Part shown: positions 36,666 through 39,420 of the stretch, one piece after another
Layout: every line of letters begins with the position of its first letter
Numbering within the stretch: the first letter of the stretch is position 1
NCBI GenBank assembly: GCA_017444965.1
Contig: JAFSVO010000098.1
Span: forward strand, 1-39,420
Length of the DNA stretch: 39,420 nucleotides
From: Clostridia bacterium
GTDB lineage: Bacteria > Bacillota > Clostridia > Oscillospirales > Butyricicoccaceae
Direction of reading: 5' to 3'
Notes under the pieces: model-generated
Databases searched by the model: none
Seen by the model: only the letters and a program-made list of their open reading frames with translations
Told to the model about the DNA's origin: nothing
Program-made: the position numbers and the translations under genes

Positions 36666-36694
36666 ATTGACCGTATAACAATATCGTGATAAAA
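36666..36694 (+). promoter_or_regulatory. Candidate promoter of the transketolase operon
   Basis: TTGACC, a 17-nt spacer (GTATAACAATATCGTGA) and TAAAAT. Confidence 0.5.
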
Positions 36695-36748
36695 TAATTA
36701 AGATAAAAATCCGAAAAAACAATTTAAAAAATACAGGCAGGTGTAAAA

Positions 36749-37588
36749 ATGAAAACGAACAAGGAACTCCGCGTGTTCGCGGAAGAGATCAGAGTCGAGA
36801 CCCTTAAAGAAATAGGCCACCTCGGCTTCGGACACATCGGCGGCGCTTTGTCGATAGTAGAGCTTTTGTCGGTGCTTTACGGCGGCGAAATGCGCATAGA
36901 CCCTAAAAATCCCGACTGGGACGACAGAGACAGACTGGTCGTTTCCAAGGGTCATTCCGGCCCCTCGGTGTACGCGACGCTGGCGCTCTGCGGCTATTTC
37001 CCGAAGGAGATGCTCTTAACGCTCAACCAGGGCGGCACGCATCTTCCGAGCCATTGCGACCGCACCAAGACCCCCGGCATAGATATGACGACGGGAAGCC
37101 TCGGGCAGGGCATGTCGACGGCTATCGGCCTTGCGCTCGCGAGCAAGATAAAGAAAAAAGACAATTATACTTATCTTATTTTGGGCGACGGCGAATGCGA
37201 CGAAGGTCAGGTATGGGAAGGCGCGGCTTTCGCGCCCCACTTCAAGCTTGACAACCTTATCGCTTTCGTAGACCTTAACAAGCAGCAGCTTGACGGCGCC
37301 TGCGACGATATCCTCTATATGGGCGACATGGTCGACAAGTGGACGGCGTTCGGCTGGAACACGGTAAAAATAAACGGCCACGACATAGAGGCGATAAAGG
37401 AAGCCATAGCTAACGCGAAAAAGGTCAAGGGCAAGCCCTCTATGATAATCCTCGACACGGTAAAGGGCAAGGGCTGCGAGCTTGCCGAGCAGACCTTCCC
37501 CTGCCACCATATGAAGTTCAAGCCCGAGCAGATCGCCCCCAGCATCGAAAAGGCGGAAGCCGTGCTTGAAGCGGTCAAAAAGGCGTAA
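36749..37588 (+). CDS. Transketolase, N-terminal (TPP pyrophosphate-binding) subunit
   Basis: 279 aa with GHIGGALS, SKGHSGPSVYA and the TPP motif GDGECDEGQVWE. This is the split-gene form. Confidence 0.9.
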   Translation: MKTNKELRVFAEEIRVETLKEIGHLGFGHIGGALSIVELLSVLYGGEMRIDPKNPDWDDRDRLVVSKGHSGPSVYATLALCGYFPKEMLLTLNQGGTHLPSHCDRTKTPGIDMTTGSLGQGMSTAIGLALASKIKKKDNYTYLILGDGECDEGQVWEGAAFAPHFKLDNLIAFVDLNKQQLDGACDDILYMGDMVDKWTAFGWNTVKINGHDIEAIKEAIANAKKVKGKPSMIILDTVKGKGCELAEQTFPCHHMKFKPEQIAPSIEKAEAVLEAVKKA

Positions 37589-37601: not shown

Positions 37602-38564
37602 ATGTATAAAGTTAAATCTACGATAGAAAAAGAATCTGTCGAAATGCGCGCGGCTTACGTTGAAACTCTTTGCGCCCTTGCAGAAAAGGACGAGCGCATA
37701 GTCGTGCTTGACGCCGACCTCGTCGGCTCGAGCGGCGTAAAGCCCTTCTTCAAGCAGTTCCCCGACCGCGCGATAAACTGCGGCATACAGGAAAGCAATA
37801 TGATAGGCGTCGCCGCCGGTCTTTCGGCGCAGGGACTTATCCCCTTCGCCCATTCCTTCGGCCCCTTCGCGACCCGCAGGGTCTGCGATCAGATATTCAT
37901 TTCCTGCGCTTACGCGAAGCTGAACGTCCGCATACTCGGCTCCGATCCCGGCGTCACGGCGGCGTATAACGGCGGCACTCATATGCCCTTCGAGGATATG
38001 GGCACGCTCATGTCGATACCCGGCATAACGCTCGTTGAGCCCACCGACACGGTCCAGCTCAGATGGCTCGTAAAAGAGCTCGCGGGGAAATACGGCGTCT
38101 TCTACATCCGTATGCTCCGAAAGAACGCCGCCGGCGTTTTCGAAGCGGGAAGCACGTTTGAGCTCGGGAAAGCGGCGAAGCTCAAAGAGGGCAAGGACGT
38201 CTGCATAGTCGCCTCGGGCATCATGGTCGAAGAGGCGTTAAAGGCGGCGGCTCAGCTTGAAAAAGAGGGCGTTTCCGCGGCGGTGCTCAACACGTTCACG
38301 TGGAAGCCGATAGACGAGGAAGCCCTTTCCGAATACGCGAAGAAGTGCGGCTGCTTCGTCACCGCCGAAAACCACAACGTGATAGGCGGCCTGTACAGCG
38401 CCGTTTCGGCGAGCCTTGCGAAGAACGCCCCCGCGCCGGTCGAGGCCGTAGGCGTTTTCGACGAGTTCGGCGAGGTCGGCACCGAAGCCTTCCTGCGCGA
38501 AAGATTCAATCTTACCGCCGACGCCATAGTCAAAGCGGCGAAAAAGGCGATCTCCCGCAAATAA
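37602..38564 (+). CDS. Transketolase, C-terminal (pyrimidine-binding) subunit
   Basis: The start is set at MYKVKS (ATG 37602) behind TAAGGAGGG. The conserved blocks are INCGIQESNMIGVAAGL and GGTHMPFEDM. Confidence 0.9.
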   Translation: MYKVKSTIEKESVEMRAAYVETLCALAEKDERIVVLDADLVGSSGVKPFFKQFPDRAINCGIQESNMIGVAAGLSAQGLIPFAHSFGPFATRRVCDQIFISCAYAKLNVRILGSDPGVTAAYNGGTHMPFEDMGTLMSIPGITLVEPTDTVQLRWLVKELAGKYGVFYIRMLRKNAAGVFEAGSTFELGKAAKLKEGKDVCIVASGIMVEEALKAAAQLEKEGVSAAVLNTFTWKPIDEEALSEYAKKCGCFVTAENHNVIGGLYSAVSASLAKNAPAPVEAVGVFDEFGEVGTEAFLRERFNLTADAIVKAAKKAISRK

Positions 38565-38590
38565 GACCGGATAACGCGATAAATACGCGC
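38552..38590. repeat. Direct repeat, copy 1 (39/39 identical to 39382-39420)
   Basis: CTCCCGCAAATAAGACCGGATAACGCGATAAATACGCGC. It contains the last codons and stop of the transketolase C-subunit gene. Confidence 0.95.
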
Positions 38591-38591
38591 G

Positions 38592-38626
38592 CCCCCGCCG
38601 GAAAAATCCGGCGGGGGATTATTTTG
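38592..38626 (+). terminator. Intrinsic terminator after the transketolase operon
   Basis: An 11-bp stem CCCCCGCCGGA / TCCGGCGGGGG with an AAAA loop, followed by ATTATTTTG. Confidence 0.8.
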
Positions 38627-38655
38627 TTGACAATATCACGATATCGTGATATACT
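38627..38655 (+). promoter_or_regulatory. Promoter of the DUF4160/DUF2442 cassette with an embedded 20-bp perfect palindrome
   Basis: TTGACA, a 17-nt spacer and TATACT. The palindrome ATATCACGAT|ATCGTGATAT (38633-38652) fills the spacer and overlaps the -10. Confidence 0.6.
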
Positions 38656-38679
38656 GTAAATGAAAAAGGGGGGAAACTT

Positions 38680-38934
38680 ATGCCTGTACTTGCGAGGTTT
38701 TACGGAATAGTTATCAGAATGTATTTTTTACAAAGCGAGCATAATCCGCCGCATATCCACGCAATATATAATGACAACGTTGCCGCTGTTGATTTTATGA
38801 CCGGGAACGTATTGGAAGGATACTTGCCGGATAAGGCTCTTGCAATGGTGCGCGAGTGGATAGCCATTAACAGGGAAGACCTTAAAACCATATGGGAAAC
38901 GCAAGAGTTTAAAAAGTTGCCGCCGCTTGTATAA
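38680..38934 (+). CDS. DUF4160 domain protein
   Basis: 84 aa. FYGIVIRMYFLQSEHNPPHIHAIY is the signature block of DUF4160 as I remember it. Confidence 0.8.
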   Translation: MPVLARFYGIVIRMYFLQSEHNPPHIHAIYNDNVAAVDFMTGNVLEGYLPDKALAMVREWIAINREDLKTIWETQEFKKLPPLV

Positions 38935-38944
38935 AGGAGAGAAA

Positions 38945-39394
38945 ATGTTTCATAAGGTTAAAAACGTATTTGCGCTGCCCGATCTGCGCTTAAGCGTGCA
39001 GTTCGCCGAGGGAGTTACGAAAATATACGACGTCAAACCTCTGCTGAAACGTATTCCTGCTTTCGGCGTCTTTTTGAAAGAGCCGGAAAGATTTGAAGAC
39101 GTACAGGTCGATAACGGAGGTTACGGCGTTATTTGGAACGACGATCTTGACCTTTCCTGCGACGAACTTTGGGAACACGGCGCTAAAGCGGAGACTCCGT
39201 TTGACGGGCTTATGGCGTTCGGCGACGCGACGGAACTCTGGGGACTTAACGAAAGCACTTTACGAAAAGCCGTAAAATACGGGAAACTCATACAGGGCGT
39301 TGACGTTTGTAAATTCGGCAAGCAGTGGATAGTATCGACGTTGGCTATGAAAAGAGAATACGGCGAATCGGGCAAAGCCGGCTCCCGCAAATAA
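38945..39394 (+). CDS. DUF2442 domain protein with a C-terminal HTH-like extension
   Basis: The start is set at MFHKVKNV behind AAAGGAGAG. The N-terminal half (..LSVQFAEGVTKIYDVKPLL......VQVDNGGYGVIWNDDLDLSCDELW) matches the DUF2442 pattern. The C-terminal ~60 aa (GDATELWGLNESTLRKAVKYGKL...FGKQWIV) look like a small HTH domain. Confidence 0.75.
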   Translation: MFHKVKNVFALPDLRLSVQFAEGVTKIYDVKPLLKRIPAFGVFLKEPERFEDVQVDNGGYGVIWNDDLDLSCDELWEHGAKAETPFDGLMAFGDATELWGLNESTLRKAVKYGKLIQGVDVCKFGKQWIVSTLAMKREYGESGKAGSRK

Positions 39395-39420
39395 GACCGG
39401 ATAACGCGATAAATACGCGC
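39382..39420. repeat. Direct repeat, copy 2 (truncated by the window end)
   Basis: It is identical to 38552-38590 and supplies the last codons and stop of the DUF2442-HTH gene. Confidence 0.95.

What the first reader, a model, noticed from the sequence alone, without database searches (positions are those of the whole stretch)
38552..39420. DUF4160 / DUF2442-HTH two-gene cassette bracketed by perfect 39-bp direct repeats at the transketolase stop codon
Seen directly: CTCCCGCAAATAAGACCGGATAACGCGATAAATACGCGC occurs at 38552-38590 and again at 39382-39420, 39/39 identical. The second copy runs into the window end, so the repeat may be longer.
Copy 1 provides the final codons (..SRK) and stop of the transketolase C-subunit gene. 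Copy 2 provides the final codons (..SRK) and stop of the DUF2442-HTH gene.
The ~790 bp between the copies is self-contained. It holds a terminator, its own consensus-like promoter with a 20-bp perfect palindrome, a DUF4160 ORF, and a DUF2442 ORF fused to an HTH-like tail.
Inference: this looks like a small module inserted, or recombined site-specifically, at the 3' end of a housekeeping operon. The target appears duplicated and no recombinase lies inside.
Established knowledge: DUF4160 and DUF2442 commonly occur as adjacent pairs, and to my knowledge they have no assigned function. A compact, apparently autoregulated two-gene unit resembles toxin-antitoxin or abortive-infection modules, so this is my best candidate for an undescribed system.
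Basis: partly seen in the sequence, partly recalled or inferred. Interest (0 to 1): 0.72.

Follow-up and report, generated by a model that had tools for sequence, protein, structure and literature searches.

The report
Toxin-antitoxin cassette inserted behind transketolase
A small, already-described kind of toxin-antitoxin gene pair (DhiTA type) has been inserted right behind the transketolase gene. The insertion duplicated 39 bases of that gene's end; the gene pair is ordinary, and only the way it was inserted is still unexplained.

Summary
The 39-nt repeat is exact, at 38552-38590 and 39382-39420, with none expected by chance. A second contig shows it is exactly 39 nt long.

- The 791 bp between the copies are an acquired cassette: terminator T1, a sigma-70 promoter with a 20-bp palindromic operator, a DUF4160 gene and a DUF2442-HTH_59 gene.
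- The repeat is native to tkt, because every tkt relative ends ..A/S-R-K-stop. The antitoxin ORF reads into the duplicate and borrows its last three codons and stop.
- The closest relative with a long contig has tktC followed directly by the next gene, so its site is empty.

The cassette is not an undescribed system. DUF4160/DUF2442 is the DhiTA type II toxin-antitoxin family, shown experimentally in Dickeya (2021) and Thermus (2025). The HTH-fused version is carried by at least 582 species genomes, mostly gut and rumen Clostridia.

How it moves is open.
- An 832-bp contig from another sample is a circular permutation of the 830-bp unit, meaning a tandem copy or a circle.
- The window is a whole contig and ends exactly at the end of repeat copy 2.
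- In other species the same cassette sits behind queA in 21 of 63 loci, often with the queA 3' end duplicated on the far side.
- No recombinase is nearby.

Interest is moderate to low.

The parts
36667..36695 (+). tkt operon promoter (TTGACC, 17 nt, TAAAAT) with an operator-like site at 36675-36690. Listed as context; a possible cross-talk site, not shown to belong to the cassette.
   Evidence: Promoter scan gives 10 of 12 matches. ATAACAATATCGTGAT has 2 mismatches to the 16-nt operator core, against 0.12 sites with up to 3 mismatches expected per window. It sits in the same register as the cassette operator (D6). It is absent from the tkt promoter of relative L097.
36749..37588 (+). Transketolase N-terminal subunit gene (host, context)
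   Evidence: Pfam Transketolase_N, E 1e-55
37602..38564 (+). Transketolase C-terminal subunit gene (host). Its last 10 coding nt plus the stop lie in repeat copy 1.
   Evidence: Pfam Transket_pyr and Transketolase_C. The C-terminus ..ISRK-stop is conserved as ..(A/S)RK in 50+ homologues.
38552..38590 (+). Repeat copy 1 (R): the native tkt 3' end, made of the last 3 codons, TAA and 26 nt of 3' UTR
38592..38627 (+). Terminator T1: an 11-bp GC stem, a 4-nt loop and a T-rich tail. It ends tkt transcription now, and would end the TA operon in a tandem or circular form.
   Evidence: Terminator scan. Fold energy -32 kcal/mol, z -3.2. In other cassette subfamilies a similar hairpin lies directly 5' of the -35 behind three unrelated upstream genes.
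38627..38655 (+). Cassette promoter: -35 TTGACA, 17-nt spacer, TG-extended -10 TATACT
   Evidence: The conserved left edge of the cassette family starts at this -35.
38633..38652 (+). 20-bp perfect palindrome ATATCACGATATCGTGATAT between -35 and -10; the presumed operator of the HTH antitoxin
   Evidence: The core TCACGnTAnCGTGA is present upstream of the cassette in 72 of 73 related loci, and in 68 of 73 in the same -35/operator/-10 layout.
38680..38934 (+). Toxin gene: DUF4160 (DhiT family), 84 aa, with the conserved EHNPPHxH motif
   Evidence: Pfam E 1e-20. 3412 homologues. Invariant residues from the alignment. Confident model, pLDDT 91.8, with no PDB fold match.
38945..39394 (+). Antitoxin gene: DUF2442 (DhiA family) fused to an HTH_59 DNA-binding domain, 149 aa. 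Its last 3 codons and stop come from repeat copy 2.
   Evidence: Pfam. More than 5000 homologues. Tail not conserved beyond ..REYG. Best PDB fold match is 2AUW NE0471, probability 0.98. PHROG 2655, E 1.6e-36.
39382..39420 (+). Repeat copy 2 (R): a duplicate of the tkt 3' end. The contig stops at its last base.
   Evidence: The window is the whole contig (longest contig 39420). It is followed by T2 and the next gene in L005, and by T1, the promoter and the toxin start in L001.

Best explanation
The region is a horizontally acquired DhiTA-type type II toxin-antitoxin cassette. It carries a DUF4160 toxin first and then a DUF2442 antitoxin fused to an HTH_59 DNA-binding domain, with its own promoter.

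How it most likely works (inferred from the family):
- The toxin, whose conserved His-rich EHNPPHxH motif suggests a metal-dependent enzyme, arrests growth unless the antitoxin's DUF2442 domain binds it.
- The antitoxin's HTH domain, alone or with the toxin, sits on the 20-bp palindrome between -35 and -10 and represses the operon.

How it got there:
- A 791-bp piece (T1, promoter, toxin, antitoxin minus its own end; 38591-39381) sits between the tkt 3' UTR and tkt's native terminator T2.
- The event duplicated 39 bp of the tkt 3' end. tkt therefore keeps an intact end, and the antitoxin ORF runs into the copy and ends with tkt's own S-R-K-stop.
- The cassette encodes no recombinase. Whatever put it there acted in trans, or it was a recombination accident.

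What the repeats now allow (inferred): the two 39-bp repeats are substrates for homologous recombination. This would produce loss, 830-bp circles or tandem copies in part of the population, which fits the circularly permuted contig and the assembly break at the end of copy 2.
For: TA identity:
- Pfam domains and toxin-first order with a 10-nt gap.
- Experimental work on the family (PMC8198452, PMC12724237).
- The antitoxin fold matches NE0471, which is DUF2442 plus HTH.
- The operator is conserved in 72 of 73 loci.
- The toxin gene is frameshifted, truncated or missing in roughly 15 of 80 related loci while the antitoxin is kept, as is typical of TA decay.

Insertion:
- R is native to tkt and the antitoxin tail is not conserved.
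- GC drops across the cassette.
- L005 gives antitoxin-R-T2-next gene, and the T2 stem pairs with the last 4 nt of R, so R-T2 is one native unit.
- Relative GCA_016648615.1 shares the synteny but has only 200 nt between tktC and the next gene.
- The relative in L093 has no cassette within the 113 nt that its contig extends past the tkt stop.
- The cassette occurs at other sites in at least 582 species genomes.

No recombinase: there are only two ORFs between the repeats, and none of 27 large ORFs in the 39-kb contig is a recombinase.

Tandem copy or circle:
- L001 (832 bp, from another sample) covers window 38716-39420 and continues into 38591-38717. It passes through R unbranched.
- The window is a whole contig that ends at the last base of R.
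Against: - No nucleotide-level empty site (tkt-R-T2) was recovered.
- L001 is one short contig. If that assembler passed through a k of 39 or less, the antitoxin-R-T1 join could be a graph artefact.
- Toxicity, neutralisation and operator binding are inferred from the family and were not tested. The toxin's biochemical activity is unknown even in the characterised members.
- 39 bp is close to the lower limit for RecA-dependent exchange (my own knowledge), so repeat-mediated events would be rare.
- The origin of the 39-bp duplication is not explained by any demonstrated mechanism.
Confidence: 0.7

Rival explanations
1. The cassette is a trans-mobilised, site-specific gene cassette. An 830-bp circle (R-T1-promoter-toxin-antitoxin) would integrate at the 3' end of a housekeeping gene by a recombinase encoded elsewhere. 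The duplicated gene end would serve as attL/attR, and the excisionase-like HTH of the antitoxin might help. The queA-linked arrays in other Clostridia would be the same system with a different att site.
For: - The direct repeat is the target gene's 3' end including its stop, the classic signature of integrase-type integration.
- There is a circular or tandem junction contig.
- In other species the cassette follows queA in 21 of 63 loci.
- A queA-3'-end motif occurs 64 times in 81 loci against 3 in shuffles. Twelve loci have a copy at a fixed distance of about 470-510 nt from the antitoxin start.
- There are clean examples of duplicated queA ends next to the cassette: L086 (24 nt including the stop codon), L014 and L095.
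- The antitoxin matches PHROG 2655 'excisionase', and stand-alone HTH_59 proteins in C. difficile phages are annotated as excisionase.
Against: - No recombinase lies in the cassette, in the 39-kb contig, or next to the cassette in the 63 and 69 neighbours scanned; there was one TnpB-like hit only.
- The flanking repeats differ in sequence and length (23-50 nt) between loci and share no core.
- About half of the queA loci have no duplicate at all, for example L045 and L048.
- R has no inverted-repeat core.
- The 'excisionase' label is annotation only.
- A second 830-bp contig of a homologue (L099) is not circular.
Confidence: 0.2
2. The 830-bp periodicity is a plain tandem segmental duplication, or an amplification in progress, that happens to include the cassette. 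The 39-mer would be only the duplication joint and says nothing about how the cassette arrived.
For: L001 reads antitoxin-R-T1-promoter-toxin, exactly what a head-to-tail duplication of 38552-39381 gives. L001 carries a non-conservative L4R change in the toxin at a position that is L or I in all 34 aligned homologues. An inactivated toxin would make amplification tolerable.
Against: In L005 the copy of R after the antitoxin is followed by T2 and the next gene, not by the rest of a native antitoxin end. The single-copy state therefore already has two R copies, which a simple duplication of an R-less cassette cannot produce. The repeat borders coincide with the cassette borders.
Confidence: 0.07
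3. The repeat or the cassette position is an assembly artefact, that is, a chimeric join through a short shared k-mer.
For: The contig ends exactly at the repeat, and 39 is a k value used by a common assembler (my own knowledge). All cassette-bearing contigs other than the window are short. L092 is visibly mosaic.
Against: Both junctions recur in three or more independent assemblies, including a k141 contig (L003) that runs tkt-R-T1-promoter-toxin-antitoxin. L005 runs through R into unique downstream DNA.
Confidence: 0.03

Closest known systems
DhiTA (DUF4160 toxin / DUF2442 antitoxin) type II TA of Dickeya dadantii 3937, and the 'persistence-enhancing module' of Thermus thermophilus plasmids
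   Same: The same two Pfam domains, the same unusual toxin-first order, short adjacent genes forming one operon, and an own promoter. Autorepression was shown for dhiTA, and here a conserved palindrome overlaps the promoter.
   Different: The antitoxin here carries an extra C-terminal HTH_59 domain and is 149 aa. The Thermus antitoxin is 92 aa, and no HTH is mentioned for either described pair. The host is a Clostridia-type gut or rumen bacterium. Nothing has been tested experimentally here.
NE0471 of Nitrosomonas europaea (PDB 2AUW), a structural-genomics 'putative DNA-binding protein'
   Same: The same two-domain layout as the antitoxin: an N-terminal DUF2442 domain plus a C-terminal helix-turn-helix. 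It is the best PDB fold match (probability 0.98, 118 aligned columns).
   Different: Sequence similarity is marginal (E 0.62). The match is weak in absolute terms (Foldseek E 0.023, TM-score 0.41) and the antitoxin model is only moderately confident (pLDDT 70). The HTH type may differ, and NE0471 has no described function.
Integrative elements that target the 3' end of a conserved gene and restore it with their own copy, such as tRNA-gene islands and SCC elements at rlmH, including recombinase-less elements mobilised in trans (my own knowledge)
   Same: The direct repeats are the target gene's 3' end. The target gene stays intact. The elements can pile up as arrays at one site, as seen at queA in related loci. 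A circular junction may exist.
   Different: The unit is only 830 bp with no recombinase, and no cognate recombinase has been identified anywhere. The repeat sequence is not shared between loci. The antitoxin ORF itself reads into the repeat.
Integron gene cassettes carrying TA pairs. A DUF4160/DUF2442 pair is listed among the TA systems of a Vibrio cholerae genome in PMC12654330; that V. cholerae TA pairs lie in its chromosomal integron is my own knowledge.
   Same: A small promoter-bearing TA unit without its own recombinase, sitting in arrays and bounded by repeats.
   Different: There is no attC-like imperfect palindrome and no integron integrase. The repeats here derive from the host gene.

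Membership tests
DhiTA type II toxin-antitoxin (DUF4160/DUF2442) | Toxin protein with a DUF4160 (PF13711) domain | tested here: met
   E 9.8e-21, 74 bits against a cut-off of 23, full-length match
DhiTA type II toxin-antitoxin (DUF4160/DUF2442) | Antitoxin protein with a DUF2442 (PF10387) domain | tested here: met
   E 1.5e-9, 38 bits against a cut-off of 23.9. Fold match to 2AUW and 3K8R.
DhiTA type II toxin-antitoxin (DUF4160/DUF2442) | Toxin gene first, antitoxin immediately downstream on the same strand | tested here: met
   38680-38934 then 38945-39394, with a 10-nt gap and an RBS before each. The same order holds in about 60 related loci.
DhiTA type II toxin-antitoxin (DUF4160/DUF2442) | Toxin inhibits growth and the antitoxin neutralises it | not testable with these tools
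   Indirect only: the toxin is degraded or lost while the antitoxin is kept in roughly 15 of 80 loci.
DhiTA type II toxin-antitoxin (DUF4160/DUF2442) | Operon autorepressed by the antitoxin or the TA complex | not testable with these tools
   Sequence support only: a perfect 20-bp palindrome lies between -35 and -10, its core is conserved in 72 of 73 loci, and the antitoxin has an HTH domain.
Integrase-type integrative element (att = 3' end of the target gene) | Direct repeats made of the target gene's 3' end flank the element | tested here: met
   39/39 nt; tkt origin shown by C-terminus conservation
Integrase-type integrative element (att = 3' end of the target gene) | A tyrosine or serine recombinase in the element or demonstrably acting on it | tested here: not met
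   Two ORFs only between the repeats. No recombinase among 27 large ORFs of the contig. None among the nearest neighbours in 63 upstream and 69 downstream related loci.
Integrase-type integrative element (att = 3' end of the target gene) | Empty site and excised circle exist | tested here: inconclusive
   The empty site is seen only at gene-order level in an 86%-identical relative. The circle or tandem junction is seen in one 832-bp contig.
Integron gene cassette | attC imperfect palindrome at the cassette end and an integron integrase with attI nearby | tested here: not met
   R folds into nothing beyond a 4-bp stem. There are no inverted repeats at the cassette ends and no integrase. No dedicated attC model was run.
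Insertion sequence, MITE or transposon | Terminal inverted repeats, a transposase and a short fixed-length target duplication | tested here: not met
   No terminal inverted repeats and no transposase. The duplication is 39 nt here and 23-50 nt at other loci.
Known anti-phage defence systems (PADLOC) | Either protein matches a model of a catalogued defence system | tested here: not met
   0 families for both proteins at E up to 1. DUF4160 is, however, reported as an effector domain of some Menshen NsnC proteins (PMC12065111).

The most novel reading that the evidence does not exclude
Gut and rumen Clostridia may harbour an undescribed class of recombinase-less mini-cassettes: TA pairs such as this DhiTA-HTH unit, ParE or HigB-type pairs, and ORF-less hairpin units. 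These would insert precisely at the stop codon of housekeeping genes, mostly queA and here tkt. Each insertion would copy 20-50 nt of the gene's 3' end to its far side, building arrays, and the cassettes could leave as small circles or amplify in tandem. The window would be the cleanest recent example, with 39/39 identity and the antitoxin reading into the copy. The machinery acting in trans would be new.
Probability: 0.2. Interest if true: 0.7.

Novelty: new variant of a known kind. Interest (0 to 1): 0.35.

Why it matters
The gene pair adds little by itself. It is another member of a toxin-antitoxin family that already has experimental support, in an HTH-fused form that is very common (at least 582 species genomes) but has not been discussed in the papers I found.

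What could matter is the insertion signature:
- a clean, recent, recombinase-less insertion at a stop codon with a 39-bp duplication of the gene end;
- a possible circular or tandem form;
- a strong, previously unremarked preference of the same cassette family for the queA stop codon, often with a duplicated queA end.

If that reflects a dedicated mechanism, it would explain how small TA and defence cassettes spread into conserved operons of gut anaerobes.

The operator-like site in the tkt promoter also raises a testable possibility: that an acquired antitoxin regulates a central-metabolism operon.

Tried and rejected
1. Exact search for 26 nt of R found 0 hits in the 185,579-species genome collection and 0 in the JGI metagenomes. 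No extra copies and no nucleotide-level empty site were found that way.
2. DUF4160 as a small HUH-type nuclease or transposase, suggested by its H-I-H-A-I-Y motif. The confident model (pLDDT 91.8: five strands plus one long helix) has no PDB fold match (best E 0.38). The idea was dropped.
3. Structured RNA in or around the cassettes: Rfam gave no hit at E up to 0.1 in six loci.
4. Known defence system: PADLOC gave no hit.
5. A second circular contig: the 830-bp contig of homologue P0087 (L099) is not a circular permutation, so its length is a coincidence.
6. Plasmid or phage vehicle. No full-length antitoxin relative was found in 72,556 plasmids. One was found in 50,697 phage records (Dulem virus 33) and 8 in 2.9 million IMG/VR contigs, several of them at contig ends. 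The cassette is essentially chromosomal.
7. A shared core among the flanking repeats of different loci, which would point to one recombinase: none was seen.
8. T1 and T2 as diverged copies of one terminator. They sit in the same register and share the base of the stem, but that is also expected of any two intrinsic terminators. Left open.
9. tkt as a recurrent target: no transketolase was found among the 63 upstream neighbours. In a 78%-identical relative, phage packaging genes follow tkt, but no att-like repeat was found within the 4 kb held.
Full report
1. THE OBSERVATION

The 39-mer CTCCCGCAAATAAGACCGGATAACGCGATAAATACGCGC is present at 38552-38590 and 39382-39420, 39/39 identical and 830 nt apart. 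Even with three mismatches allowed there are no other copies in the window, and none are expected by chance.

Copy 1 covers the last three codons and the stop of the transketolase C subunit (37602-38564). Copy 2 covers the last three codons and the stop of the second cassette ORF (38945-39394). Between them lie:
- a strong terminator T1 (38592-38617 plus a T run);
- a near-consensus promoter (TTGACA, 17 nt, TG-extended TATACT; 11 of 12 matches);
- a perfect 20-bp palindrome (38633-38652);
- an 84-aa DUF4160 ORF and a 149-aa DUF2442 + HTH_59 ORF.

2. WHERE THE REPEAT ENDS, AND WHAT LIES BEYOND THE WINDOW

The window is a complete contig: the collection lists 39,420 as the longest contig carrying the toxin protein. 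The assembly therefore stopped exactly at the last base of copy 2. Exact-protein look-ups recovered short contigs of the same organism from other samples.

- L002 and L003 (the latter a k141 contig from another assembly) repeat tkt-R-T1-promoter-toxin-antitoxin at 100% identity.
- L005 gives the exit. It reads antitoxin (99% variant), the same 39 nt, then a different terminator T2 (CCCCGCGTGAGTTTTCACGCGGGGGCGC plus a T run), about 270 nt of AT-rich spacer, and a gene of at least 561 aa with no Pfam family.
- The exact repeat is therefore 39 nt; a 2-nt indel would add a few bases of GC stem.
- The T2 stem pairs with the last four bases of R. R-T2 thus looks like one native 3' UTR plus terminator.
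- The implied empty site is tkt-R-T2-next gene, and the inserted DNA is 38591-39381 (T1, promoter, toxin, antitoxin minus its own end).

3. WHICH COPY IS THE ORIGINAL

More than fifty transketolase C-subunit homologues at 75-92% identity all end ..A(I/V)(A/S)RK-stop. The S-R-K-stop in R is therefore tkt's own. Homologues of the antitoxin are conserved up to ..REYG and then have unrelated tails of 3-10 residues. The antitoxin in the window has thus lost its own end and reads into a duplicate of the tkt end.

4. EVIDENCE THAT THE CASSETTE WAS ACQUIRED

- GC falls from 58-62% in tkt to 42-50% in the cassette.
- The closest relative with a long contig (P0121, 86% identity, GCA_016648615.1) has the same gene order: racemase, ferredoxin, ClpC-like ATPase, HtrA, tktN, tktC. 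It has only 200 nt between tktC and a 1005-aa gene, so there is no room for the cassette. Its DNA could not be fetched.
- A second relative (L093, 88%) has neither R nor a cassette in the 113 nt that its contig extends beyond the stop.
- A 78% relative has phage packaging genes there instead. The region behind tkt is therefore variable in this group.
- The 39-kb contig is otherwise ordinary chromosome (tyrS, serine-pathway genes, capsule genes, S-layer protein, ClpC, HtrA). None of its 27 large ORFs is a recombinase.

5. WHAT THE TWO GENES ARE

The pair is not uncharacterised.
- DUF4160/DUF2442 was named dhiTA in Dickeya dadantii 3937. The first gene is toxic in Dickeya and E. coli, co-expression of the second relieves it, the genes are co-transcribed, and the promoter is repressed by the antitoxin and more strongly by the complex (PMC8198452).
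- In Thermus thermophilus plasmids the same pair raises plasmid persistence, and the second gene cannot be deleted alone (PMC12724237).
- A 2025 survey notes that most DUF4160 proteins are followed by DUF2442 proteins and treats DUF4160 as a toxin effector of unknown fold (PMC12065111).

My own checks agree.
- The toxin model is confident (pLDDT 91.8) but matches nothing in the PDB. This also disposes of my passing idea that its H-I-H motif marks an HUH nuclease.
- The antitoxin model (pLDDT 70) matches NE0471 (2AUW), a DUF2442 + HTH protein (probability 0.98, Foldseek E 0.023).
- PADLOC has no model for either protein.
- PHROGs files the antitoxin under a family labelled excisionase. The label seems to come from stand-alone HTH_59 proteins of C. 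difficile phages, and I found no experimental basis for it.

6. THE FAMILY AT LARGE

The HTH-fused antitoxin has more than 5000 relatives at 90% clustering. These are almost all gut or rumen Clostridia MAGs, at about 70-77% protein identity.

Findings in the 80 loci fetched:
- Toxin and antitoxin are adjacent in most. The toxin is frameshifted, truncated or absent in roughly 15.
- Conservation begins at the -35 box. The operator core TCACGnTAnCGTGA is present in 72 of 73 loci, and 68 of 73 have the full -35/operator/-10 layout. That is good comparative support for an operator, and with the HTH domain it supports autoregulation.
- In some subfamilies a terminator hairpin directly 5' of the -35 recurs behind three unrelated upstream genes. 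A 5' terminator such as T1 may therefore travel with the cassette.

7. HOW IT MOVES: WHAT IS SHOWN AND WHAT IS NOT

(a) L001, an 832-bp contig from a different sample, is a circular permutation of the 830-bp unit.
- It runs from inside the toxin gene through the antitoxin, R, T1 and the promoter, back into the toxin start.
- It passes through R without a break. It differs from the window by one synonymous change, and by L4R in the toxin at a position that is L or I in all 34 aligned homologues.
- Together with the contig end at R, this suggests that antitoxin-R-T1 and antitoxin-R-T2 both exist. That would mean tandem copies or circles formed by exchange between the 39-bp repeats.
- It is a single short contig, so I rate this junction as about even odds of being real.

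(b) The cassette's favourite site elsewhere is the stop codon of queA.
- queA is the upstream gene in 21 of 63 loci. Downstream genes vary: tgt 7, rsmF 4, miaA 3.
- A 17-nt queA-end motif occurs 64 times in 81 loci against 3 in shuffled sequence. Nearly all copies are on the cassette strand and 56 lie close to the cassette. Twelve loci have a copy at a fixed distance of about 40-70 nt after the antitoxin stop.
- L086 is a clean parallel to the window. A 24-nt segment holding the last five queA codons, the stop and 7 nt is repeated 22 nt after the antitoxin stop, just before the next gene's ribosome-binding site.
- L014 and L095 show the same, and L095 has three queA-end copies bracketing two inserted units.
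- In L054 the motif has travelled to a non-queA site, where an unrelated ORF reads into it and ends ..FGDAMLIE like QueA.
- Neighbouring units in these arrays include ParE, Gp49/HigB-HTH and Fic pairs.

(c) Against a dedicated mechanism:
- The repeats differ in sequence and length (23-50 nt) and share no core.
- About half of the queA loci have no duplicate.
- No recombinase is next to the cassettes.
- Phage or plasmid carriage is rare.

Exchange of whole flanks between related genomes, plus occasional illegitimate events, could give much of this picture.

8. VERDICT

The finding is real and the insertion reading is sound.

The 'undescribed system' claim fails. This is a DhiTA-type toxin-antitoxin cassette with an HTH-fused antitoxin, a common but unstudied variant.

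The unexplained part is the origin of the 39-bp target duplication and the possible circular or tandem form. The queA pattern makes a trans-acting cassette mechanism worth testing. I give it about 0.2.

Noticed in passing
window 36667-36695: The tkt operon promoter resembles the cassette promoter (24 of 30 nt). It carries an operator-like site, ATAACAATATCGTGAT, with 2 mismatches to the 16-nt operator core, in the same register between -35 and -10. The tkt promoter of a 78%-identical relative without the cassette (L097 2940-3165) has nothing like it. Either the antitoxin cross-regulates tkt, or this is a relic of another cassette promoter.
   Followed up: partly
L092 1159-1318 (same sample as L005): This contig runs tkt-R-T1-promoter-5' UTR and then diverges exactly at the toxin ATG (window 38679) into an inverted near-copy of the 5' UTR (AGTTTCTCCCCTTTTTCAT). 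Its first 398 nt do not match the window's tkt. It is either a structural variant lacking the genes or a chimeric scaffold.
   Followed up: partly
L001 797 (= window 38690); L005 588 and 595 (window frame 39312 and 39319, in the HTH part): There are at least three cassette haplotypes among samples. L001 has toxin L4R at a conserved position. L005 has F to V and K to M changes in the HTH domain.
   Followed up: no
L002 and L003 ends (= window 39206): Two contigs from different assemblies stop at the same base, at the DUF2442/HTH domain boundary of the antitoxin. This hints at a graph branch there, from a second, partly identical cassette or a variant in the population.
   Followed up: no
L054 4291-4476 and 5503-5688; also L060, L061, L036, L038: Repeat units of 111-186 nt flank the cassette. 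Each holds a long imperfect hairpin and ends in a queA-3'-end motif (GATGCTGATAGAATAAAAGAA, 5 copies in L054). They have no ORF and no Rfam match.
   Followed up: partly
L069 4567-4602 and 5442-5477; L052, L017, L018, L049, L055, L061: A palindromic element, TTACCGATTGG-N14-CCAATCGGTAA, recurs right after the antitoxin stop and after neighbouring ParE-type cassettes. In several loci the antitoxin's last codons lie inside it (..PIG-stop).
   Followed up: no
L024, L040, L047, L051, L053, L056, L057 (toxin absent); L026, L058, L061, L073, L088 (frameshifted); L016, L072, L085 (truncated): In roughly 15 of the 80 loci the toxin gene is absent, frameshifted or truncated while the antitoxin gene remains intact.
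   Followed up: partly
L029 3331-5001: About 1.4 kb, including a 285-aa ORF, lies between the toxin and antitoxin genes, so something has been inserted inside the operon.
   Followed up: no
L094 709-1434 (Dulem virus 33, PP511792.1): A 40-kb phage genome from lemur faeces carries both genes (toxin 63% and antitoxin 68% identical). The record annotates only the antitoxin, and places an opposite-strand ORF over the toxin.
   Followed up: partly
L097 5082-8966: In a 78%-identical relative, phage terminase and portal genes start 116 nt after the tkt stop, at host-like GC.
   Followed up: partly
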